Origin: Patescibacteria group bacterium
GTDB taxonomy: Bacteria > Patescibacteriota > Doudnabacteria > UBA920 > O2-02-FULL-48-8
Direction of reading: 5' to 3'
Length of the DNA: 64,000 bases
NCBI GenBank assembly: GCA_036278915.1
Contig: DASUKB010000001.1
Coordinates: forward strand, 7,259-71,258
Shown here: positions 1,852 to 46,446 of the stretch, in pieces
Position numbering within the stretch: the first letter of the stretch is position 1
Layout: each line of letters opens with the position of its first letter
Notes under the pieces: generated by a model
Databases searched by the model: none
Seen by the model: the letters and a program-made list of their open reading frames with translations, nothing else
Told to the model about the DNA's origin: nothing
Position numbers and translations under genes: made by a program

Positions 1852-2355
1852 ATGTACAGTCATTAAAAACCAAATTAAGGAGCAACTAAAAACACTCGGT
1901 TTTTGAGCAAATTTCTTTGATCCCTGTTGTTGTATGGGATATCGAGGAACACGAAAGGCTCGTGTTTTTTACTTGCTAAAGTGGTTTTGTGAAGTACCTT
2001 AACAATTGCATACCCAAGAATTATCAATTAGATAATCAGTCTCGCAAAGTGCGGGATCGACAACCAATTGCAGATAATTTATTGGGAATAAGACGCCGAA
2101 CCTTTTGCCGTCAAGCTAAAGGGGAGGCAAAGACGTCAATTACTTTGATTCTAGATTCCCGTTTACGGGAACAAAGGTTTGCAATTTGACCTTTTAAAAA
2201 AATAAATTGCGCCAGTTTAATCTGATTTCAGATTACACTCACAAAATTATGACCTCACTCTTTTATTAAAGGGAAAGAGGTTAGCAAATACGGCTCTGCC
2301 GGATTTGCGATGTAGGAGAAAACCGCTAGGTTGTCTCCTACACATAATTCATTGA

Positions 2356-2399
<44 letters not shown>

Positions 2400-2516
2400 G
2401 ACATGCAAGTCGAGTGGGTTTAGACCCACGGCGAACGGGTGAGTAATACCTGGGAACTTTCTTCTAGTTGAGGATATCCTCCCGAAAGGGAGAGCAATAC
2501 TCGATGTGCCCAGCCC

Positions 2517-2805
2517 TTTTCTTAGTTGTATAATGTTAATTATGTATTATGTATATATAATCAAACATGATCCTTCCGGAGATATCTATATTGGATTCTC
2601 GGACAATGTTGATGCGAGATTGACTGCTCATAACAATGGGCAAAATACCTCAACACGAAGATTGTCTGGCCAATGGATACTAACATACACAGAAGCTTAT
2701 CGTTCAGAGCAAGATGCTCGTGAAAGAGAACGAAAGCTGAAACAGTACGGAAGCGCCAAACAGAGATTACTAAAAAGGATCTCAAGAAGTTTTGGAAACT
2801 GAGAA
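2517..2805 (+). other. intervening sequence (IVS) in the 16S gene, closed by a 12-bp stem
   Basis: CCCAGCCCTTTT at 2508-2519 pairs with AAAAGGGCTGGG at 2806-2817; the AT-rich interior interrupts otherwise conserved 16S sequence. Confidence 0.75.
2533..2802 (+). CDS. small GIY-YIG nuclease-superfamily protein (YhbQ/UPF0213-like) encoded inside the 16S IVS
   Basis: YVYIIKHDPSGDIYIGFSDNVDARLTAHNNG followed by an E/R/K-rich helix matches the GIY-YIG core; start codon uncertain (GTG 2506, ATG 2533 or ATG 2542). Confidence 0.7.
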   Translation: MLIMYYVYIIKHDPSGDIYIGFSDNVDARLTAHNNGQNTSTRRLSGQWILTYTEAYRSEQDARERERKLKQYGSAKQRLLKRISRSFGN

Positions 2806-2935
2806 AAGGGCTGGGTAAAGCAGCAATGCGCTAGATGTGAGGCCCGGGCCCCATCAGCTAGTTGGTAGGGTAACGGCCTACCAAGGCTATGACGGGTAGC
2901 GGAAGCGAGAGCTTGATCCGCCACACTGGGACTGC

Positions 2936-2968
<33 letters not shown>

Positions 2969-3463
2969 TTGGAATTTTGGACAATGGGCGAAAGCCTGAT
3001 CCAGCGACGCCGCGTGCACGAAGAAGGCCTTCGGGTTGTAAAGTGCTTTTGCTTGGGAAAAATTTTTGATTGTACCAAGAGAATAAGAGGTTGCTAACTC
3101 TGTGCCAGCAGCAGCGGTAATACAGAGACCTCAAGCGTTATCCGGAATCATTGGGCGTAAAGCGTACCGATAGGTGGTTTTGCAAGTTTTGGGTAAAAGC
3201 CAGAAGCTCAACTTCTGCGTTTGCTCAAAATACTGCAATACTAGAGGGACAAAGAGGTTGCTGGAACGAACGGTGTAGTAGTGAAATGCGTTGATATCGT
3301 TCGGAACACCGAAAGCGAAGGCAGGCAACTGGGTGTCACCTGACACTGCTAGGACGAAAGCGTGGGGAGCGAATGGGATTAGATACCCCAGTAGTCCACG
3401 CTGTAAACGATGAGTGCTAGGAATGCGCGAGTATCGACCCTCGTGCGATCCGTAGCTAACGCG

Positions 3464-3560
<97 letters not shown>

Positions 3561-3970
3561 GTAAGCGAGGAACCTTACCAAGGCTTGACATTCTTCTGCA
3601 AGCGCACGGAAACGTGTGACCTTCGAGGGTGAAGAACAGGTGCTGCACGGTTGTCGTCAGCTCGTGTCGTGAGATGTTCCCTTAAGTGGGAGAACGAGCG
3701 CAACCCCCATGTTATGTTGATTTTCATAACAGACTGCCGGCGTTTAAGCTGGAGGAAGGCGGGGATGACGTCAAATCAGCGTGGCTCTTACGCCTTGGGC
3801 GACACACGTGCTACAATGGATAGGAACAATGGGACGCAACACCGTAAGGTAGAGCAAATCCTCTCAAAAACTATCCTCAGTTCAGATTGAGGGCTGCAAC
3901 TCGCCCTCATGAAGCTGGAATCGCTAGTAACCGCAAATCAGCCTCGTTGCGGTGAATACGTTCTCGGGTT

Positions 3971-4001
<31 letters not shown>

Positions 4002-4341
4002 GGTAAGTACCCAATATTTGCGCAAGCGAACGAAGGTAAGTATCATGACTGGGGTGAAGTCGTAACAAGGCATCGGTAGCGGAAGCTGTCGATGGATCAC
4101 CTCCTTTCTAAGGAGAATTCTGCAGAAACAGGAATCATTTCGATGAATCCTGCGGAGCAGTAATGATGGTCGATTCAGAATTGAAGCTCGCAAGAGCAGA
4201 TATTCTGAACACATCAAGACTCTGACGTTTATGTGGTTTTCGAAAGAGAATCGCAATCTTATTCCCAATAAATTGTCTGGAACCTGAAGGGTTTCTTATG
4301 ATGGAAAGCCTGGTGGCCTCACGGTCACAGGCTTTTTAAAT

Positions 4342-11607: not shown

Positions 11608-12450
11608 TTAACTCACTCCAATCATAATGCTAAATACTAATAACAAAATTAGTGAGAATCTATACATGCGTCTGGCCCAAAGCCCCGTGTCGGGAGTATT
11701 TAATCCGCGAAAAGCCATTGCCAGCCAATATAGTCCCAAAATTCCCACGACCGCCAAGTACCGCCAGCCGACAAATCTGAAGACATATAGCATGGACGCA
11801 GATACAAGATAAAGAACGATAAGCACGATTATAGAAAGTTTCGTGTAGCGGATGCCCTTCTCTGCCGGCAGTACGGGCACGTGCGCTGCTTGGTAATCGC
11901 GCAGCCGATATATTGCGATCGCATAAAAATGCGGCAATTGCCAAATGACCATTATTAAAAATAAAATCAAACCTTCCCACCCTATGCGGCCAGTGACTGC
12001 GGTAAACCCGGCCAATATAGAAACCGCGCCTGGCAAAGTGCCAATAGTGGCCGCATGCAAGGTGCGGACTTTGAGCGGCGTGTAAACCCCGACATAAAGC
12101 AGTATGCCGGATAAGACTACAAGCATAGTTAAAGTGTTGGTAAACCAAAACAGTATAGCCAGTCCGACTGCGGCCAAAATTACGGCAAAGATAACGGCGT
12201 TTCTGGTTCCGGTTTGGTTTAAAATTTGCCGCCGGTTTTGAGTGCGCGGCATAAGTTCGTCTATGCCGCGATCCAGTAAATTATTTAGAACACAGCCTGC
12301 AGCAATAGATAATGCTACTCCTGCCAGCATGGCCACAAAAAGTCCTGGATGAAAGACGTCTTTTGAAGCTAAGAAAAATGCGGCAATTGCCGTGAGGCTG
12401 TTGCCATAAATAATACCCGGTTTGGTGAGCCGATAGTAAGCCGAAAGCAT
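11608..12450 (-). CDS. cyoE: protoheme IX farnesyltransferase (heme O synthase, UbiA family)
   Basis: UbiA-type polytopic membrane protein directly downstream of cyoD in conserved operon order. Confidence 0.85.
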   Translation of the reverse strand: MLSAYYRLTKPGIIYGNSLTAIAAFFLASKDVFHPGLFVAMLAGVALSIAAGCVLNNLLDRGIDELMPRTQNRRQILNQTGTRNAVIFAVILAAVGLAILFWFTNTLTMLVVLSGILLYVGVYTPLKVRTLHAATIGTLPGAVSILAGFTAVTGRIGWEGLILFLIMVIWQLPHFYAIAIYRLRDYQAAHVPVLPAEKGIRYTKLSIIVLIVLYLVSASMLYVFRFVGWRYLAVVGILGLYWLAMAFRGLNTPDTGLWARRMYRFSLILLLVFSIMIGVS

Positions 12451-12792
12451 TTAGAATCCTCCTTCCTGGCTTGTGATGTAGTCCTGAATTTGCTGGGGCG
12501 TCATATTGTAATTAAGATTGGCCATAATCCAAAGACTGCCGACGACGATAATCAAAATTAATCCTACCGTTGAGACAAACATTGCCAAGTTCCAGTGTGG
12601 ACGTGGCTCTGACCCCACGTGCAGGAAAAATATCAGCTGCACCACAAGCTGCACCAAAGCCAGTGTCAGAATGGCGAAAATTAGTTTATTGCCGGCAAAC
12701 GTCTGGTCCACTACCAGCTTGTATGCTAAGAGCGTTAAAAAGATAGACAGCAGCAAACCCAAGACATATTTAAATACGGTTTTTTGGTTCAT
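12451..12792 (-). CDS. cyoD: cytochrome bo3 ubiquinol oxidase subunit IV
   Basis: MNQKTVFKYVLGLLLSIF...WIMANLNYNM matches CyoD; ATGA overlap with cyoC; the ORF track's longer N-terminal extension is rejected. Confidence 0.85.
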   Translation of the reverse strand: MNQKTVFKYVLGLLLSIFLTLLAYKLVVDQTFAGNKLIFAILTLALVQLVVQLIFFLHVGSEPRPHWNLAMFVSTVGLILIIVVGSLWIMANLNYNMTPQQIQDYITSQEGGF

Positions 12793-13382
12793 CGGGCGGC
12801 TCCCATAAGGTAAACAATAGTAAAGATAAAGATCCAAACGATATCCAGGAAATGCCAGAACAGACCCAGCCGGACGAGTTTGCTTTTGATGCTCGCAGTT
12901 AAGCCTCGCACATGCATCATAACCATAGACACTGCAATCCAAAACAGGCCTACTGTAATATGCAAGCCGTGCGTGCCAACGAGCGTGAAGAACGCGGACA
13001 GAAATCCGCTGTTGCGAAAGCTTTGGCCGTCTGCCAAAAGATGCGAAAATTCGCGCAGCTCTAAGCCCAAGAAAGTCGCGCCAAGTAAGAATGTGATGCC
13101 AAACCAAAGATAGGCTTGCTTTTTGCTGCCGGCATTTGCGGCCAGAACTGCCAGGCCGCAGGTAAAACTGCTGGTAAGCAAAATCAAAGTTTCTGCCAGA
13201 GCTTGCGGCAATTTCAGAAGTTCGCCAGCGGTTGGGCCGCCGAATGTGTTGTTGCGAAGTACGGCGTACACCGCAAACAACACGGCAAACATCGTCAGGT
13301 CTGTCATAAGATAGACCCAGAAGCCGAAAATGACTCTGTCGTTATGTTCGTGTTCTACGGGTTGGATGTTGTTATCGGCCAT
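12789..13382 (-). CDS. cyoC: cytochrome bo3 ubiquinol oxidase subunit III
   Basis: MADNNIQPVEHEHNDRVIFGFWVYLMTD... is CyoC-like; start 4 nt after the cyoB stop. Confidence 0.85.
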   Translation of the reverse strand: MADNNIQPVEHEHNDRVIFGFWVYLMTDLTMFAVLFAVYAVLRNNTFGGPTAGELLKLPQALAETLILLTSSFTCGLAVLAANAGSKKQAYLWFGITFLLGATFLGLELREFSHLLADGQSFRNSGFLSAFFTLVGTHGLHITVGLFWIAVSMVMMHVRGLTASIKSKLVRLGLFWHFLDIVWIFIFTIVYLMGAAR

Positions 13383-13386
13383 AAGT

Positions 13387-15357
13387 TTAGTGTAATGTTT
13401 CTTTTTCTTCCAATTGTCGCAGTTCGGAAGCGGTAATAACGTACTCGGTGTCATCGTCGTACGCGCGGATAATGACGCAGATGATTGCACCGGCAAATCC
13501 CAAAATTCCAAGCCAGAGAATATGCCAGACAAACGCAAAGCCTAACAGAAATATAAATCCCGACAGATAAATTCCGAGCCCGGTGTTTTTGGACATCGTA
13601 ATATCCTGGTAATTTTTCGGTTTGGTCAGGCCCTTCTGTTTCATATTCCAAAATGCATCGCGGCTCTCAACCGTCGGTATGACCGCGAAGTTATAATGCG
13701 GCGGCGGGGAGGATGTGGCCCATTCCAGAGTCCGGCCATTCCAAGGATCACCTGTTAGATCCCGATTTTCTTTGCGCTGTTTGAAGCTTACGAAAATCTG
13801 AAGGACTTGCAAGAGCGCGCCAATGCCAATGATGCAAATGCCAATGAGCGCTGTTATAAAGAGCGGTTGCCACCCGGTGCCGGCGTCATAATGATCCAGC
13901 CGGCGCGTGGCGCCCATTAGTCCAAGCAGATACAGCGGCGTGAATGCCGTAAAAAATCCGACCAGCCAGCACCAGAACGCGTATTTGCCGAGGCGTTCGT
14001 TGAGCCGGAAGCCTGTGACTTTGGGAAACCAGTAAGTGATGCCGGCAAATATGCCAAATAGCGCGCCGCCGATGACCATGGTATGGAAATGCGCCACCAA
14101 AAATAAAGTGTTGTGCAGTTGAAAATCCGCCGCGGGCGAAGCAAGTAAAAGTCCTGCGATGCCGCCAAACGTAAAGGTGCTTATGAATCCCAAAAACCAA
14201 AACATCGGAGTCTTGAAGATAATCCGGCCGCGGAACATAGTGAGAAGCCAGTTGAAAATTTGCACCGCAGTTGGGATGCCGATAATCATAGTCATGATGC
14301 CGAAGAAAGCGTTGACGTCGGCGCCGGCGCCCATGGTAAAAAAGTGGTGGAGCCAGACTACGAACGCGATACCGGTAATGCCAAAGGCCGCGGCTACCAT
14401 TGAGTAGTATCCGAATAATTTTTTCTGCGAGAAAGTAGATACGACTTCCGAGTATATGCCGAAACCAGGGATAATAAGCACGTAGACTTCCGGATGTCCC
14501 CAAGTCCAAATGAGGTTGACGTACATCATCATATTGCCGCCAAATCCTGCGGTGAAAAAATGCATGCCGAAAAACCGGTCGAGCCAGAGCAGGGCAATAG
14601 TCGCGGCCAGAATCGGAAAGATAGCCACAACAAGCGACGAGCTAAGGAGTGCGGTCCAGGTAAACATCGGCATCCGGAAAAGCGTCATGCCAGGCGCGCG
14701 CATTTTGATGATGGTTACCAGAAAATTAATTCCGCCAAGCATGGTGCCCAGCCCGGAAATTTGCAGGCTCCATATCCAATAATCCACGCCCGTACCCGGA
14801 TTGAACGCCAGTTCTGACAATGGCGGCAAGGCCAGCCAGCCCGTGGCCGCAAAGTCGCCGCCAATGACAAAAAATAAATTGATAAACACCGCGCCCGCCA
14901 CATACAGCCAAAAGCCCAAAGAATTGAGAAATGGAAACGCCAGGTCGCGCGTGCCGATTTGCAGGGGCACTATGAAGTTGAGCAGGCCGAACAAAAATCC
15001 CATAGTCACGAAAAAAATCATAATGTCGCCGTGGGCCGTGAAAATCTGCTGGAAGTGGCTCGGGTCCAGGTAACCGTATGAAGCACCGGAAGATAAAGCC
15101 TGCTGGAGCCATATCATAACCGCATCCAGGGCGCCGCGGAAAAGCATAAGCGAAGCCATAATGATATACATAATCCCAATCCGTTTAGGATCAGTGGAGG
15201 TCAGCCACTCAGTCCAGAGCCATTTCCACCGTTTGGTGTAGGTGAGGAACAGCACGACGACTACGGACATAAGCAAAATAAAGCACGTCCCTCCTAAGGT
15301 GAACCATTGGTGGGGGAGCGCATCCGTCGTAAGATTTCCAATCAAAAAGTGTTGCAT
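13387..15357 (-). CDS. cyoB: cytochrome bo3 ubiquinol oxidase subunit I (heme-copper oxidase)
   Basis: near-verbatim CyoB blocks WIWSLQ, KMRAPGMT, NMMMYxNLIWxWGHPEVY, NRDLTGDPWxGRTLEWATSSPPP. Confidence 0.95.
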   Translation of the reverse strand: MQHFLIGNLTTDALPHQWFTLGGTCFILLMSVVVVLFLTYTKRWKWLWTEWLTSTDPKRIGIMYIIMASLMLFRGALDAVMIWLQQALSSGASYGYLDPSHFQQIFTAHGDIMIFFVTMGFLFGLLNFIVPLQIGTRDLAFPFLNSLGFWLYVAGAVFINLFFVIGGDFAATGWLALPPLSELAFNPGTGVDYWIWSLQISGLGTMLGGINFLVTIIKMRAPGMTLFRMPMFTWTALLSSSLVVAIFPILAATIALLWLDRFFGMHFFTAGFGGNMMMYVNLIWTWGHPEVYVLIIPGFGIYSEVVSTFSQKKLFGYYSMVAAAFGITGIAFVVWLHHFFTMGAGADVNAFFGIMTMIIGIPTAVQIFNWLLTMFRGRIIFKTPMFWFLGFISTFTFGGIAGLLLASPAADFQLHNTLFLVAHFHTMVIGGALFGIFAGITYWFPKVTGFRLNERLGKYAFWCWLVGFFTAFTPLYLLGLMGATRRLDHYDAGTGWQPLFITALIGICIIGIGALLQVLQIFVSFKQRKENRDLTGDPWNGRTLEWATSSPPPHYNFAVIPTVESRDAFWNMKQKGLTKPKNYQDITMSKNTGLGIYLSGFIFLLGFAFVWHILWLGILGFAGAIICVIIRAYDDDTEYVITASELRQLEEKETLH

Positions 15358-15362
15358 CTGAT

Positions 15363-16268
15363 TTACATATGCATGCCCGGCATGTCGGCATCTTGTCCGG
15401 CTTCCGGGGCCATAAATTTCATAATCACTTCGTTGTAAAGGTTGGGTTCCACTGGCGCAAAGAAGGCTTGCGGATTATATTCGCTCGGCTTTGCCAGGTC
15501 GTTATACCCGGCTAAAGTCAGCTCAGAGGATGTTGCCTGCATCGAGTTTAGCCAGGAATTGAAATCATCTGAAGATACGGATTTGGCCGTAAACTTCATG
15601 CCCGCAAAACCTGCGCCATTGATTTCCGCGGCCGTGCCCGCGTATTCACCAGCGGAGTCGGCCATAAGGTTGAGCTGGGTGACCATACCCGGCATAGCGT
15701 ACATTTGTCCTCCTAATTGTGGAATCCAAAACGAACTCATTGGTGCGTCTGCTGTTAACTGGAAATTCACGGGCGTATTTTGTGGAAATTCCACGAAGTT
15801 TACCGTAGCGATATTTTGTCCAGGGTAGATAAACAGCCACTTCCACTGCAGGGCCACGACTTGGATGGTCAAAGTTTTTGTGCCTGGGTCAATTTTTTTG
15901 TAAGGGTCCACGGCGTGGCTTGTGTTCCAGGTCAAAATTCCAAGCAATACAACAATAGCCGCTGGCAGGCCCCATCGAATGAATTCCCATTCCAGATTGT
16001 GGTCCCACTCCGGCTGGTAGTCTGCTTGTTCGTTTGTGGCCCGGTACTTGTAGGCGATTACAAATGTCGCTACCAAAAGCGGCACGGCCAAGGTCAGCAT
16101 AAGCAGTACCGCCGTAAACATAGTACTGCGTTCTTGGTGCGCGATAATGCCTTGAGGATTGAGTAACTGGAAATTGTGCCCGCGCAAAAGGAGGCTGATC
16201 GTGATAATGGTTGCAGCAACTAGCAAAATCGGCAGAATAATTTTTAATTTTTTTGAAATTTGTTTCAT
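15363..16268 (-). CDS. cyoA: cytochrome bo3 ubiquinol oxidase subunit II
   Basis: signal/TM start MKQISKKLKIILPILLVAA, quinol-oxidase subunit II fold; TATAAT-like -10 and GAGG SD just upstream of the ATG at 16268 (ORF track extends to 16301). Confidence 0.85.
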   Translation of the reverse strand: MKQISKKLKIILPILLVAATIITISLLLRGHNFQLLNPQGIIAHQERSTMFTAVLLMLTLAVPLLVATFVIAYKYRATNEQADYQPEWDHNLEWEFIRWGLPAAIVVLLGILTWNTSHAVDPYKKIDPGTKTLTIQVVALQWKWLFIYPGQNIATVNFVEFPQNTPVNFQLTADAPMSSFWIPQLGGQMYAMPGMVTQLNLMADSAGEYAGTAAEINGAGFAGMKFTAKSVSSDDFNSWLNSMQATSSELTLAGYNDLAKPSEYNPQAFFAPVEPNLYNEVIMKFMAPEAGQDADMPGMHM

Positions 16269-16350
16269 TCGGAATTGCCTCAAATGCATTATATCACGCA
16301 AAAAAACAACGGAGAAGTCAAGTCTGGCTTTTCCGTGTTGTTCCTTGAAT

Positions 16351-21420: not shown

Positions 21421-21497
21421 GGGCGACTAGCTCAGGTGGTTAGAGCGCGTCACTGATAATGACGAGGTCGATGGTTCGAGTCCATCGTCGCCCACCA
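21421..21497 (+). tRNA. tRNA-Ile (anticodon GAU)
   Basis: cloverleaf GGGCGAC/GTCGCCC acceptor, anticodon loop CTGATAA, T-loop TTCGAGT, encoded CCA. Confidence 0.9.
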
Positions 21498-21526
21498 TTG
21501 GCGGATAAATATTTTAAAACCAAAAC

Positions 21527-21766
21527 ATGAGATTTATTTGGGGCCTCGTTTGGATAGCCATCGGCGTCGGCGTTATAAAATACAGTTTTCAAATTACGAA
21601 TTTTTTCGGACATGTGCCTTGGGCCGAACAGCATATCGGCGGCGGCGGCACTTACACAATGTATAAAATTGCCGGGATCGTAATTATAATATTCGCGTTT
21701 TTGTATATGTTCGGCAATACTGGATTTTTAACTGGCCGTCTGGCACCTCTTTTTGGCGGAGGCTAA
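21527..21766 (+). CDS. small 2-TM membrane protein, hypothetical
   Basis: two hydrophobic helices, Gly-rich ends. Confidence 0.4.
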   Translation: MRFIWGLVWIAIGVGVIKYSFQITNFFGHVPWAEQHIGGGGTYTMYKIAGIVIIIFAFLYMFGNTGFLTGRLAPLFGGG

Positions 21767-21830
21767 TGTTTTCTACGTGAATTAAAACGCCAGCGCGGTT
21801 TGATTTTGTGAGGAGCGGTATGTTCGGGGA

Positions 21831-21904
21831 GGGCCGTTAGCATAGTGGTAGTGCAGTCGGTTTGCATCCGACAGGCGCGAGTCCGATTCTCGCACGGTCC
21901 ACCA
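21831..21904 (+). tRNA. tRNA-Ala (anticodon UGC)
   Basis: anticodon loop TTTGCAT; G3:U70 alanine identity pair in the acceptor stem; encoded CCA. Confidence 0.8.
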
Positions 21905-41241: not shown

Positions 41242-41704
41242 TGGAACAAGCTAATGCCAAAACAAACAAAAACCTCAAGTTTTAACGTAAAAAATATGAA
41301 ATTCTCCAGCAACTCACTTCAACGAAAGGCGGTTATGTAAACTGGCGCTTTAGTTTGTGCCCAGAATTCAACCGCCGAAAGGCGTTTTTTTGTTCCTTAC
41401 AACTAACATCTAGAATTCAGTGCTTCACCGCATTGCTTGACTTTAAGCAGGTTCTGAAAGTAAGCACTGTATTCTGGATGTAAGCGGATAGAACTTTAAC
41501 AATTTACCGGCATCTAAGAGATATATTTTCAGTTTGCCAAACGTATGAGAGATGATGAGTCTCGAAGGTAGGCGTTTAGCAAAACATAAGTTAGTGCTTA
41601 TGAATATATCTGAATCCAAATCCTCGGCATTGTAACCGGGGTAACTCTGGCTTAACTGTCGGAGTATAAAAAATAGCAATCACTAATTGCTAGTCAAGAA
41701 TCTG

Positions 41705-45168
<3,464 letters not shown>

Positions 45169-45239
45169 TTAAATTTTTGACTAGCGTTTTGTGATTATTA
45201 TCACAAGTTCATTTACATCCCCGCTTTCGCGGGGACAAG

Positions 45240-45778
45240 ATTGTTTGCCGGAAAATGGAATGGCCACCTCATTATTATTCTCGCCCGCGAAGCGGGAGAG
45301 ATGTCACGCATCAGCGTGACAGAGAGGGTGGTTTAAAAGTTTGGGAGCCATGTCAGACATCTGGGCTTACGCTCAATCGCTGAAACATGCGAGCAACACG
45401 AGCCACGAGCATAAAACATCTGTCTGTCTCAAGCTCCCATTCAGTTAGGAGTGATTTGGTGTTTTGAAAGATCAGGGACGGCTCATAACCCGAACTGATT
45501 GTTCCGGTTCGTACCACCTTGAGTGGCAACCGCCGTGAACCAGGCGCCAGAAAACTCCTCCGGGATGATCTCCATCTGCCACTTCTTGGAGTCTCCCGGT
45601 CATTTCGATACTGGGGAACGGTGAAAAATTGGATTTGTGTTCATTCTGCCCTAAGACACACTCGGGCGGAATTTGAGCCGAGTCCAAGGTGTTCCTATCT
45701 CTCCTTTCACCTCTCCGTTTCCCAGACCTTTCTCCCGACGAGCTTTAAGCTTGTCGGGCCCATTTTCCGGCAAACAAT
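45240..45778. repeat. 539-bp element bounded by perfect 19-bp inverted repeats (ATTGTTTGCCGGAAAATGG / CCATTTTCCGGCAAACAAT) in the 23S-5S spacer; MITE-like or a large structured spacer RNA
   Basis: inverted repeats read directly; the interior is rich in GC hairpins (CTCGCCCGCGAAGCGGGAG, TGTCACGCATCAGCGTGACA) and has no credible ORF. Confidence 0.6.
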
Positions 45779-46134
45779 ACAACTCCGACGTTTTGCATAA
45801 CAAAAGTCGGAGTCCTGACTTGCATTTTTGTGCATCGTCGGGATTGACGGCGATTTTTGCTCTTTCCATAATGATTCCAAACTGCTATAATTAATCAGTT
45901 GGAACTAATATGGATTTGCTAATGCAAAGATATTCGCCTTCGCTTAAATTGGTAGGACTTATAATCGTTATCGCGGCCATGGGATTTATAATCTTCGCGC
46001 TTACGAAAAACACCCTGCCAATGCAGTAATACAGCGCTTCGCACTGTAATTTCTAAGCCCTAATATCTAAGCTCTAAACAAGATTAGAAATTAGTAATTA
46101 GAACTTAGAAATTGCAGCACGTAAGTGCTGAATA

Positions 46135-46252
46135 TCTCCTCGTGCTTCAAGGGCCGCTGCCCCACCCGATCCCATCCCGAACTCGGAAGTGAAACGCGGC
46201 ACCGCTCATGATACTCCAGTGTAAGACTGGTGGGAAAGTAGGCAGTGCGGGG
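46135..46252 (+). rRNA. rrf: 5S ribosomal RNA
   Basis: CCACCCGATCCCATCCCGAACTCGGAAGTGAAACG loop C/helix III block and 3' GAGAGTAGG-like segment; boundaries approximate. Confidence 0.8.
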
Positions 46253-46446
46253 TTTTTTATTTATATTGAGGGACGAACCTACGGTTCTTCCCTCAACGCG
46301 CCGTCAGCAAAGCTGATTTTTGCTTCGCAAAAACAAGCGGCGCTGCTCCTTTCTCCCTTCTTAATTGACCTAATTGGTCTTTTTTGTTGTCCTAAAAAAT
46401 AGTGGCTTCGTTTAGAAAATTTTTTTGTGTTGGGCGAGGAAATTTG

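What the first reader, a model, noticed from the sequence alone, without database searches (positions are those of the whole stretch)
2517..2805. 16S rRNA gene interrupted by a hairpin-tip insertion encoding a GIY-YIG (YhbQ-like) nuclease
An AT-rich insert of about 290 nt interrupts otherwise conserved 16S sequence; its position is about 150 nt into the gene, in the V2-region hairpin. A 12-bp stem (CCCAGCCCTTTT / AAAAGGGCTGGG) closes the insert, and inside it a 90-98 aa ORF carries a clean GIY-YIG core (YVYIIKHD...GDIYIGFS...RL..H). It does not look like a classical group I or II intron; it looks like an IVS that could be cut out at the stem (for example by RNase III) or be a mobile homing-endonuclease cassette. 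Protein-coding insertions in rRNA genes are established for CPR bacteria, but a YhbQ-type GIY-YIG at a helix tip deserves a direct look.
Basis: partly seen in the sequence, partly recalled or inferred. Interest (0 to 1): 0.6.

Follow-up and report, generated by a model that had tools for sequence, protein, structure and literature searches.

The report
Hairpin-closed nuclease cassette inside 16S rRNA
The 16S rRNA gene of this candidate-phyla-radiation bacterium carries, at the tip of helix 9, a 307-base hairpin-closed insert that encodes a small GIY-YIG nuclease; inserts of this kind are already reported in these bacteria, but this one belongs to a large family with conserved hairpin ends that sits at many rRNA helix tips and looks mobile.

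Summary
The 16S gene (2349-4107) has a 307-nt AT-rich insert (2509-2815) at the helix 9 tip. A 21-bp stem closes it, and it holds an 86-aa ORF (2542-2802) that is a bare GIY-YIG domain of the UPF0213/Slx1 type. No intron ribozyme was found.

GIY-YIG ORFs in non-intron rRNA insertions of CPR bacteria are already published (Brown 2015; Tsurumaki 2024), so the basic finding is a new member of a known kind.

The stem is not native helix 9. The same ends (CCCAGCNC...GNGCTGGG) bracket homologous ORFs at 16S h6, h9 and h17, at about seven 23S sites including the classical IVS helices 25 and 45, and in some intergenic sites.
- 84 of 106 copies have a stem of at least 16 bp.
- The stems covary, and G·U versus A·C asymmetry points to the sense-strand RNA.
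- The ORF is always co-oriented with the rRNA and is under purifying selection (dN/dS 0.08-0.3).
- ORF-less miniature hairpins with the same ends exist, one of them in this window's 23S (43875-43972).

Best reading: an IVS-type cassette removed from pre-rRNA at its own stem, which has moved between helix tips. Excision and nuclease activity are untested.

The parts
2349..4107 (+). 16S rRNA gene (1759 nt; the host gene)
   Evidence: Rfam RF00177, 1380.7 bits, model positions 1-1533
2509..2815 (+). The cassette: a 307-nt insert that replaces the tip of helix 9 (E. coli ~184-193). Its ends are CCCAGC...GCTGGG.
   Evidence: cmscan reports a 286-nt loop insertion. The terminal motif matches on both strands at 2509-2525 and 2799-2815. 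The same ends occur at other rRNA sites in other genomes. GC is 0.37 against 0.52 for the rest of the gene.
2507..2527 (+). 5' arm of the 21-bp closing stem (UGCCCAGCCCUUUUCUUAGUU)
   Evidence: MFE and centroid fold, z = -6.6. RNAalifold on 10 homologous elements predicts the same stem, with compensatory changes in 10 of 17 pairs.
2797..2817 (+). 3' arm of the closing stem (AACUGAGAAAAGGGCUGGGUA). It contains the ORF's stop codon, TGA at 2800-2802.
2529..2534 (+). TATAAT, a -10-like box 7 nt upstream of the ATG. It is a candidate internal promoter for a leaderless mRNA (hypothesis).
   Evidence: Read directly from the sequence. A perfect TATAAT ends 5-8 nt (mostly 6-7) before the ATG in 11 of 70 unique family members, against 0.47 expected. 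A match of at least 5/6 occurs in 19 of 70, against 3.6 expected. No -35 partner was found by the sigma-70 scan.
2542..2802 (+). ORF of 86 aa plus stop: a single-domain GIY-YIG nuclease (UPF0213/Slx1-like)
   Evidence: Pfam PF01541, E = 7.6e-15. PDB matches 1zg2 and 1ywl. AF2 model with pLDDT 95; Foldseek hits are UPF0213, Slx1, the I-TevI catalytic domain and UvrC-N. 81 homologues, with M1 invariant. dN/dS is 0.08-0.13 against the closest homologues.
41704..45172 (+). 23S rRNA gene (3469 nt). It lies 37.6 kb from the 16S and hosts the miniature element.
   Evidence: Rfam RF02541, 2279.8 bits
43875..43972 (+). ORF-less 98-nt miniature of the same cassette family at the tip of 23S helix 63 (CCCAGCCCCACTCTTCAG...TTGATGAGTGGAGCTGGG)
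   Evidence: The fold of 43860-43990 gives -49.2 kcal/mol, z = -7.2. The site corresponds to E. coli ~1717-1739, which is the commonest 23S site of ORF-bearing relatives.

Best explanation
The insert is a self-contained, hairpin-closed cassette of the intervening-sequence (IVS) type. It belongs to a large CPR family. The layout is: a 5' arm (CCCAGCNC...), a short AT-rich spacer with a -10-like box, an ~85-aa bare GIY-YIG nuclease gene that fills the loop, and a 3' arm (...GNGCTGGG) that overlaps the stop codon.

Shown here:
- It sits at the tip of 16S helix 9.
- The stem is conserved by covariation, on the rRNA-sense strand.
- The gene is under purifying selection.
- The whole cassette, arms included, recurs at about ten other rRNA helix tips and at some intergenic sites, always co-oriented with the rRNA.
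- ORF-less miniatures exist.

Inferred:
- The cassette is transcribed within the pre-16S rRNA.
- Its 21-bp stem is cut by a double-strand-specific RNase, most likely RNase III, without religation. The mature 16S would then lack about 300 nt and be split at h9, as in classical IVSs.
- The nuclease is translated from the excised RNA or from a leaderless transcript that starts at the AUG.

More speculative: at the DNA level the nuclease, which resembles the structure-specific Slx1/UPF0213 enzymes and has no DNA-binding domain, promotes copying of the cassette into hairpin-forming DNA. That would explain why insertions land at helix tips rather than at a conserved sequence.
For: Location and anatomy in the window.

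Recurrence in rRNA. Close homologues (65-71% identity) lie in 16S h9 of other genomes, and L001 has a second copy in h6. Of 106 copies in 96 sources, 71 lie in rRNA genes:
- 16S h6, h9 and h17;
- 23S at E. coli ~274 and ~1105;
- 23S H25 (~541-551), H45 (~1163), H63 (~1717-1739) and the H68 region.
H25 and H45 are the classical RNase III IVS sites (and established knowledge).

Stem statistics.
- 84 of 106 copies have a bracketing stem of at least 16 pairs, against 3 of 106 with a shuffled flank.
- Across 62 unique stems, 96.7% of positions are paired, against 59% (maximum 62.9%) in 2000 column shuffles.
- RNAalifold finds the stem independently.

RNA-level, sense-strand selection. Allowing G·U lengthens the uninterrupted stem more than allowing A·C in 43 elements; the reverse holds in 4 of 70.

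Orientation. 229 of 229 rRNA BLAST hits are co-oriented with the ORF.

Protein constraint. dN/dS is 0.08-0.31 in the 13 of 17 pairs where dS was not saturated. Y5, Y16, G18, R26, H30 and E63 are invariant or nearly so.

The stem outlives the ORF. L014 has a frameshifted ORF with an intact 19-bp stem. ORF-less miniatures with the same ends occur in the window's 23S and in 12 other loci.

Mobility as a unit.
- Whole-cassette identity reaches 76% across different sites.
- Sites are interleaved in the protein tree.
- Arms at different sites of one locus are more alike than arms from different loci: 63% against 36%, 0 of 5000 permutations.
- Stem-bracketed copies lie between protein-coding genes in L059 and L027.

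No ribozyme. Brown et al. 2015, as cited by Tsurumaki et al. 2024, reported that CPR rRNA insertions are removed from transcripts.
Against: - No RNA data were available, so excision, rRNA fragmentation and the identity of the RNase are inferred by analogy.
- No RNase III signature was found in the 64-kb window. The source contig is at least 386 kb, so this is uninformative.
- The outer 6-11 bp of the stem are conserved in sequence, not only in structure. Generic RNase III processing does not require that.
- No insert-free h9 allele from a close relative was recovered, so gain or loss at this site is not directly shown.
- No target-site duplication is evident.
- Cross-site copies are at most 76% identical, so no recent transposition was caught.
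- No member of this GIY-YIG family has a demonstrated activity.
- The -10 box has no -35 partner.
Confidence: 0.55

Rival explanations
1. It is a classical site-specific homing-endonuclease gene. The GIY-YIG enzyme would recognise and cut the insert-free h9 DNA sequence of related genomes, and the cassette would be copied in by repair. The stem would only make the insertion harmless to the rRNA.
For: GIY-YIG is an established homing-endonuclease fold, and the I-TevI catalytic domain is among the structural hits. Large same-site groups exist: 8 copies at h9, 19 at H63 and 18 at E. coli ~274. The ORF is under purifying selection.
Against: The protein is only the 86-aa catalytic core, with no linker or DNA-binding domain. 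It scores 18.4 bits against a cut-off of 56 for TIGR01453, the group I intron endonuclease model. Insertions lie in the least conserved parts of rRNA, and the sites share no sequence. [quoted passage not shown] Sites are interleaved in the tree, and cassettes also occur outside rRNA.
Confidence: 0.15
2. It is a retained expansion segment. The 307 nt would stay in the mature 16S as a long extension of h9, and the ORF would be expressed from its own leaderless transcript.
For: h9 is a surface helix. The window's 23S carries several other long ORF-less hairpin expansions. A conserved -10-like box lies 6-7 nt before the ATG.
Against: Brown et al. 2015, cited, report that CPR rRNA insertions are absent from transcripts. 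The family uses the canonical RNase III IVS sites H25 and H45. The perfect stems of 17-32 bp are typical RNase III substrates. Making an mRNA at rRNA copy number inside ribosomes seems costly.
Confidence: 0.15
3. The nuclease is a domesticated or host-useful RNA-processing factor that recognises the CCCAGC hairpin, for example by cutting its own stem or hairpins that flank stable RNA genes. On this reading it is not a selfish DNA endonuclease.
For: The outer stem sequence is conserved across sites. A stemless clade of the family sits immediately upstream of tRNA-Trp(CCA) in 12 loci. In 11 of these, closed palindromic hairpins of the same motif (such as CCCAGCCCTTCGCGAAGGGCTGGG) lie nearby. Selection on the stem is on the RNA-sense strand.
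Against: All characterised GIY-YIG enzymes are DNases (established knowledge). The distribution among CPR rRNA genes is patchy: 30 ORFs in 728 genes. Decayed ORFs and ORF-less miniatures persist, which fits a dispensable, selfish gene.
Confidence: 0.1
4. It is a self-splicing group I or II intron, or an ordinary variable-region expansion with a chance ORF, or an assembly chimera.
For: Introns are frequent in CPR rRNA genes.
Against: No intron model matches, even at E <= 10. Only 46 nt of the 307 lie outside the ORF. The Pfam hit, the AF2 fold and dN/dS well below 1 exclude a chance ORF. The same architecture is recovered from dozens of independent assemblies.
Confidence: 0.02

Closest known systems
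GIY-YIG-encoding, non-intron insertions in CPR rRNA genes (Brown et al. 2015; Tsurumaki et al. 2024, PMC11270868)
   Same: The host clade, the location inside rRNA genes, the absence of an intron ribozyme and the PF01541 ORF all match. The window's element is an instance of this published class.
   Different: The paper reports only presence and position: 30 ORFs, 'sparsely at several sites'. Its text contains no mention of 'hairpin' or 'inverted repeat'. The following were not found in the literature I could search: the conserved closing stem, strict co-orientation with the rRNA, ORF-less miniatures, intergenic copies and the tRNA-Trp-linked clade.
Classical bacterial rRNA intervening sequences (23S helices 9, 25 and 45 of Salmonella, Leptospira, Coxiella and Campylobacter; 16S IVSs of Rhizobium tropici, Helicobacter canis and Clostridium paradoxum)
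   Same: The element replaces a helix tip, has a long closing stem and no ribozyme. Some classical IVSs carry an ORF (S23p / PF05635). They are removed by RNase III without religation. The family here uses H25 and H45 among its sites.
   Different: The ORF is a nuclease rather than an S23p four-helix protein. The same terminal sequence recurs at about ten sites in both rRNAs and outside rRNA. Processing has not been demonstrated here.
UPF0213 / YhbQ and Slx1 (single-domain and structure-specific GIY-YIG nucleases)
   Same: These are the best sequence and structure matches: 1zg2, 1ywl, 6seh and 7cq3. The size matches the bare URI/GIY-YIG core.
   Different: YhbQ-type genes are ordinary chromosomal genes, not known inside rRNA or bracketed by inverted repeats. 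Slx1 has an additional RING/PHD domain and a partner, Slx4.
GIY-YIG homing endonucleases (I-TevI, I-BmoI, Seg proteins)
   Same: They share the catalytic fold and the association with insertions in conserved genes.
   Different: There is no DNA-binding domain, no intron and no conserved target sequence. The TIGR01453 score is far below its cut-off.
Hairpin-ended small mobile elements and their nucleases (REP/RAYT, IS200/IS605, MITEs)
   Same: The features in common are conserved palindromic ends, ORF-less miniature derivatives, closed hairpins next to the gene in some loci, and greater similarity of the hairpins within a genome than between genomes.
   Different: The enzyme is a GIY-YIG nuclease, not an HUH/Y1 transposase. 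No transposition has been shown and no target-site duplication was seen. This is an analogy only.

Membership tests
GIY-YIG nuclease superfamily (PF01541) | Profile match above the curated cut-off | tested here: met
   55.4 bits against a cut-off of 22.6, E = 7.6e-15, profile positions 1-73 of 78
GIY-YIG nuclease superfamily (PF01541) | GIY and YIG motifs plus conserved Arg, His and Glu | tested here: met
   The motifs are YVY (residues 3-5) and YIG (16-18). Y5, Y16, G18, R26, H30 and E63 are invariant or at least 90% conserved in 81 homologues. Their assignment as catalytic residues rests on established knowledge of I-TevI and UvrC.
GIY-YIG nuclease superfamily (PF01541) | Three-stranded sheet flanked by helices (GIY-YIG fold) | tested here: met
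   AF2 pLDDT 95 with order beta-beta-alpha-beta-alpha-alpha. Foldseek returns UPF0213, Slx1, I-TevI and UvrC-N.
GIY-YIG nuclease superfamily (PF01541) | Nuclease activity | not testable with these tools
   This needs biochemistry.
CPR rRNA insertion encoding GIY-YIG (Tsurumaki 2024 class) | Insertion of at least 100 bp relative to E. coli in a CPR rRNA gene, with no intron model and a PF01541 ORF | tested here: met
   The insertion is 286-307 nt. The host LigA is 100% identical to that of a 'Patescibacteria group bacterium' MAG, and the nearest named relatives are Doudnabacteria. No intron was found. The ORF matches PF01541.
RNase III-processed rRNA intervening sequence | Replaces the tip of a variable rRNA helix | tested here: met
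   The h9 loop. Family members lie at h6, h17, H25, H45 and H63.
RNase III-processed rRNA intervening sequence | Extended double-stranded closing stem (about 20 bp) maintained by selection | tested here: met
   A 21-bp stem, with covariation and sense-strand G·U asymmetry.
RNase III-processed rRNA intervening sequence | Absent from mature rRNA, leaving the rRNA fragmented without religation | not testable with these tools
   There are no RNA reads. The only support is the literature statement that CPR insertions are removed from transcripts.
RNase III-processed rRNA intervening sequence | Host encodes RNase III | tested here: inconclusive
   No RNase III signature motif occurs in the six-frame translation of the 64-kb window. 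The rest of the genome was not available.
Homing endonuclease of the I-TevI type | Catalytic domain tethered to a sequence-specific DNA-binding domain | tested here: not met
   The 86 aa are all catalytic core. TIGR01453 scores 18.4 bits against a cut-off of 56.
Homing endonuclease of the I-TevI type | Resides in a self-splicing intron or intein, or is free-standing next to its conserved target | tested here: not met
   There is no ribozyme. Insertion sites are variable helix tips with no shared flanking sequence.
Homing endonuclease of the I-TevI type | Cleaves the insert-free allele | not testable with these tools
Group I / group II intron | Ribozyme core detectable by covariance model | tested here: not met
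   There is no hit at the gathering threshold in the window or at E <= 10 in 2480-2840. Only 46 non-coding nt are available.
TIR / hairpin-ended mobile element (MITE- or REP/RAYT-like) | Conserved terminal inverted repeats shared by copies at different sites | tested here: met
TIR / hairpin-ended mobile element (MITE- or REP/RAYT-like) | Non-autonomous (ORF-less) derivatives | tested here: met
   Window 43875-43972 and 12 other loci. Closed hairpins were also found.
TIR / hairpin-ended mobile element (MITE- or REP/RAYT-like) | Target-site duplication, or near-identical copies showing recent movement | tested here: not met
   No duplication is visible in the flanks. The best cross-site identity is 76%.

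The most novel reading that the evidence does not exclude
The cassette is an autonomous, roughly 300-bp hairpin-ended mobile element. Its 86-aa Slx1-like GIY-YIG nuclease would work together with its own CCCAGC...GCTGGG hairpin, in a partnership analogous to REP/RAYT but with a different enzyme fold. It would target hairpin-forming DNA by structure rather than by sequence.

This would make it one of the smallest protein-coding mobile elements known. It would also be a direct source of rRNA expansion segments and IVSs in CPR bacteria, with ORF-less miniatures and closed hairpins as its non-autonomous progeny.
Probability: 0.3. Interest if true: 0.8.

Novelty: new member of a known kind. Interest (0 to 1): 0.5.

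Why it matters
For the window itself, the practical points are these.
- The 16S gene is 307 nt longer than the mature rRNA is likely to be.
- The mature 16S is probably split at h9.
- The gene would be mishandled by amplicon or full-length 16S pipelines.

At the family level, the published view is that GIY-YIG ORFs are 'sparse' passengers of CPR rRNA insertions. These data replace that view with a defined, recurrent module: conserved hairpin ends, a compact nuclease gene and miniature derivatives.

If the module is mobile in the way the data suggest, two things follow. It would explain how helix-tip insertions and expansion segments arise and spread in CPR rRNAs. It would also give the widespread but uncharacterised UPF0213/YhbQ-type GIY-YIG proteins a concrete substrate to test, a specific DNA or RNA hairpin.

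Tried and rejected
- **Intron.** No Rfam family matched at the gathering threshold or at E <= 10. Rejected.
- **Broad family alignment as a locus query.** A2 had no stretch conserved enough to search with. I used a narrower alignment, A3, instead.
- **Phage or viral carriage.** IMG/VR holds no relatives.
- **Insert-free h9 allele from close relatives.**
  - All 16S relatives found through the ORF are filled at h9.
  - A synteny route via the upstream histidine-phosphatase gene gave contigs that end 37-51 nt into the 16S.
- **Full sigma-70 promoter in the insert.** None was called. Only the -10-like box is supported.
- **RNase III gene in the window.** No signature was found. This is uninformative for the whole genome.
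- **Target-site duplications.** None is evident in the flanks.
- **Literature.** Nothing was found on YhbQ together with GIY-YIG. Brown et al. 2015 is not held, so its content is cited only through Tsurumaki et al..
- **MAFFT global alignment of the 16S to E. coli with the insert left in.** It misplaced the 5' end. I redid it with the loop removed and read h9 and h10 structurally.
- **A second conserved pairing that sequesters the AUG** (alignment columns 52-59 with 94-101). It has almost no covariation, so it was not used.
Full report
**1. The observation.**

Rfam finds a complete bacterial 16S rRNA gene at window 2349-4107 (1380.7 bits). A complete 23S lies at 41704-45172 and a 5S at 46138-46253. 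The 16S is 1759 nt against a 1533-position model. cmscan places one 286-nt insertion in the loop of the hairpin at model positions ~178-200.

I compared the gene with E. coli rrsH and read it structurally: AAUAC..AU / hairpin / YAAAG / h10. The hairpin is helix 9, E. coli 184-193, with its loop at 187-190.

Positions 2507-2527 pair with 2797-2817, with two G·U pairs. The region folds at -105 kcal/mol with z = -6.6. The insert has 37% GC against 52% for the rest of the gene.

The ORF 2506-2802 matches Pfam GIY-YIG at E = 7.6e-15. Its best solved relatives are the UPF0213 proteins 1zg2 and 1ywl. In 81 homologues the N-terminus is an invariant M followed by Y/W-Y/I-V-Y. The true start is therefore ATG 2542, giving 86 aa.

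No intron family matches the insert, even at E <= 10.

**2. Host.**

The window's LigA is 100% identical to a protein of an NCBI 'Patescibacteria group bacterium' MAG, on a contig of 385,993 bp. The nearest named relatives, at about 70% identity, are Candidatus Doudnabacteria. The 16S and 23S genes are unlinked, 37.6 kb apart, and type IV pilus genes are present. Both features fit a CPR genome.

**3. The stem belongs to the insert, not to helix 9.**

The closest homologues (65-71% identity) are also inside 16S genes at h9: L001, L002, L003 and L005. L001 carries a second GIY-YIG ORF at the tip of helix 6. That copy is closed by CCCAGCCCTTTC...GAAAGGGCTGGG, the same ends as the window's h9 insert. 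The window's own h6 is an ordinary short hairpin, so it serves as the empty site.

I collected 106 copies of the ORF from 96 sources: 11 GTDB genomes, 80 metagenome contigs, the first four loci and the window.
- 84 copies are bracketed by an inverted repeat of 16-32 pairs.
- Only 3 of 106 reach that length when the 5' flank is shuffled.
- The outer end reads CCCAGC in most copies. Variants are CCCCGC, CCGAGC, CCCGGC, TCCAGC and CCCTCC.
- The 5' arm is pyrimidine-rich, with consensus YCC(A/C)(G/T)C(A/C)C(C/T)(A/T)NTTTTG.

**4. Where the family sits.**

BLAST against the window's rRNAs, with coordinates transferred to E. coli, gives the sites below.

| rRNA | Site |
|---|---|
| 16S | h6, h9, h17 |
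| 23S | E. coli ~274 |
| 23S | H25 (~541-551) |
| 23S | ~1105 |
| 23S | H45 (~1163) |
| 23S | H63 (~1717-1739) |
| 23S | H68 region (~1876-1889) |

H25 and H45 are the classical IVS positions.
- 71 of 106 copies are in rRNA genes.
- Ten loci have two copies on one contig, eight of them within a single rRNA gene.
- All 229 rRNA hits of at least 60 nt are co-oriented with the ORF and none is opposite.
- Fifteen stem-bracketed copies are outside rRNA. In L059 and L027 they lie between protein-coding genes on the same strand.
- Twelve stemless copies form their own clade and end 3-35 nt upstream of a tRNA-Trp(CCA) gene.

**5. What the stem is for.**

Across 62 unique anchored stems, 96.7% of 18 positions are paired, against 59% (maximum 62.9%) in 2000 column shuffles. 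Each position shows 3-6 Watson-Crick pair types. RNAalifold, run on ten complete elements from h9 and H63, predicts the closing stem on its own. It finds compensatory double changes in 10 of 17 pairs.

A strand test separates RNA-level from DNA-level selection.

| Pairs allowed | Mean uninterrupted stem (bp) |
|---|---|
| Watson-Crick only | 15.2 |
| Watson-Crick + G·U (sense RNA) | 18.9 |
| Watson-Crick + A·C (equivalent to antisense G·U) | 15.8 |

Allowing G·U gives the longer stem in 43 elements, and allowing A·C does so in 4 of 70. The structure is therefore selected on the rRNA-sense RNA.

The stem also survives loss of the gene.
- L014 has a frameshifted ORF inside an intact 19-bp stem.
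- ORF-less miniatures of 34-190 nt with the same ends occur in 12 loci.
- One such miniature is in the window's own 23S, at the H63 tip (43875-43972, z = -7.2).

**6. The gene.**

dN/dS between same-site homologues is 0.08-0.31 in the 13 of 17 pairs where dS was not saturated. For the window against L003 and L005 it is 0.08-0.13. The AF2 model is confident, with pLDDT 95. Its nearest solved folds are UPF0213 BH0048, Slx1, EF2693, the I-TevI catalytic domain and UvrC-N.

The protein is the bare catalytic core. It has no DNA-binding domain, and it scores far below the cut-off of the group I intron endonuclease family. The ORF fills the loop: the start codon lies 3-22 nt after the 5' arm, and the stop lies in or next to the 3' arm.

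In the clade that includes the window, a perfect TATAAT ends 5-8 nt (mostly 6-7) before the ATG in 11 of 70 unique elements, against 0.47 expected. A match of at least 5/6 occurs in 19 of 70, against 3.6 expected. In the window this box is at 2529-2534. It suggests a leaderless transcript, but no -35 partner was found.

**7. Evidence for movement as a unit.**

- Whole cassettes, arms included, are up to 76% identical between different rRNA sites.
- In a neighbour-joining tree of the proteins, insertion sites are interleaved. The h9 site appears in three places, and H25 copies are mixed with H68 copies. The tree rests on about 80 residues and has low resolution.
- Arms at different sites of the same locus are more alike than arms of different loci. 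Identity at arm positions 7-16 is 63% against 36%, with 0 of 5000 permutations reaching the observed value.
- Closed palindromic hairpins of the same motif lie beside the stemless tRNA-Trp-linked genes, for example CCCAGCCCTTCGCGAAGGGCTGGG. In 384 kb, 14 of 20 such hairpins are within 400 nt of a family ORF.

Against current mobility, there are no target-site duplications, no near-identical cross-site copies and no relatives in IMG/VR.

**8. Mechanism.**

Shown:
- A conserved module of hairpin plus nuclease gene sits at a helix tip.
- The stem is under RNA-level selection.
- The ORF is under protein-level selection.
- The ORF is strictly co-oriented with the rRNA.
- The module has relocated between sites in the past.

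Inferred:
- The cassette is transcribed within pre-16S rRNA and removed at its stem by RNase III or a similar dsRNA endonuclease, without religation. The grounds for this are as follows:
  - the analogy with classical IVSs;
  - the family's use of H25 and H45;
  - the stem lengths;
  - the report that CPR insertions are removed from transcripts.
- The nuclease is made from the excised RNA or from a leaderless transcript.

Speculative:
- The Slx1/UPF0213-like nuclease acts on hairpin-forming DNA. That would direct insertion to helix tips rather than to a sequence.

The rival explanations are sequence-specific homing, a retained expansion segment, a domesticated RNA-processing role, and intron or artefact. 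They are weighed in their own sections.

**9. Comparison with what is known.**

Tsurumaki et al. 2024 (PMC11270868), citing Brown et al. 2015, already report GIY-YIG ORFs in CPR rRNA insertions. They count 30 ORFs, 15 in 16S and 15 in 23S genes, none in intron-like insertions. [quoted passage not shown] The window's element is therefore a new member of a known kind.

Several features were not found in the searchable literature:
- the conserved closing hairpin;
- the strict co-orientation with the rRNA;
- the miniature derivatives;
- the intergenic copies;
- the tRNA-Trp-linked clade.

That search covered open-access text only, and Brown 2015 itself could not be read.

**10. Verdict.**

The basic phenomenon is already known. 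The family-level architecture is the interesting part and should be tested with RNA reads and a simple nuclease assay.

Noticed in passing
window 43875-43972 (+), inside the 23S gene: A 98-nt ORF-less hairpin at the tip of 23S helix 63 has the same ends as the 16S cassette (CCCAGCCCCACTCTTCAG...GAGTGGAGCTGGG). It looks like a miniature, ORF-deleted member of the family in the same genome. Similar miniatures occur in L009, L014, L019, L024, L042, L046, L051, L055, L062, L068, L095 and L022.
   Followed up: yes
L008, L010, L011, L043, L044, L052, L070, L083, L086, L087, L092, L093: A stemless clade of the same GIY-YIG family ends 3-35 nt upstream of a tRNA-Trp(CCA) gene on the same strand. In 11 of the 12 loci, closed palindromic hairpins of the cassette-arm motif lie upstream of the ORF and/or downstream of the tRNA. 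Examples are CCCAGCCCTTCGCGAAGGGCTGGG and CCCGTCGCTCGCGAGCGACGGG. The arrangement is REP/RAYT-like and unexplained.
   Followed up: partly
L001 3549-5606 (also L002): One 16S gene carries two different GIY-YIG cassettes, at helix 6 and helix 9, only about 34% identical in protein. Ten loci in all carry two copies on one contig, eight of them within a single rRNA gene.
   Followed up: yes
L014 2982-3280: This cassette in 23S (E. coli ~274) has a frameshifted ORF but an intact 19-bp closing stem. The stem therefore outlives the gene.
   Followed up: partly
L059 2477-2756; L027 2471-2781; also L018, L021, L022, L036, L082, L094: Stem-bracketed cassettes lie outside rRNA. In L059 and L027 they sit in short intergenic gaps between co-oriented protein-coding genes. 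The host flanks often extend the helix, as if the cassette had been inserted into a pre-existing hairpin. L036 has two tandem copies, one of them truncated.
   Followed up: partly
window 2529-2534 and the equivalent position in 18 other unique elements: A TATAAT-like box ends 6-8 nt before the ATG, while the spacer between them varies. This suggests an internal promoter producing a leaderless mRNA. No -35 element was found.
   Followed up: partly
window 41918-42043, 42068-42233, 42588-42703, 43653-43765, 44998-45065 (23S): The 23S is about 540 nt longer than the model, owing to several other expansions. Three of them (41918-42043, 42588-42703, 43653-43765) fold into long, AT-rich, nearly perfect hairpins. 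None has an ORF or the CCCAGC ends. They are inserted after E. coli positions ~221-232, ~274-295, ~651, ~1587 and ~2794. Their origin is unknown.
   Followed up: partly
window 2349-4107, 21421-21904, 41704-46253: The rRNA genes are unlinked. The 16S lies 37.6 kb from the 23S-5S pair, and tRNA-Ile(GAT) and tRNA-Ala(TGC) lie on their own between them.
   Followed up: no
window 11608-16301 (-): A haem-copper quinol oxidase gene set is present: COX1, COX2 with a COX_ARM motif, and a UbiA-type haem O synthase. Respiratory oxidases are uncommon in CPR genomes.
   Followed up: no
L009 4695-4767: A tRNA-model hit (54.8 bits) lies inside the span of a 23S rRNA gene. It may be another kind of insertion.
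   Followed up: no
alignment A5 columns 52-59 with 94-101 (window ~2542-2549 with ~2584-2591): RNAalifold predicts a second conserved helix that pairs the AUG start region with the codons of the YIG motif. It shows almost no covariation, so it may only reflect coding conservation.
   Followed up: no
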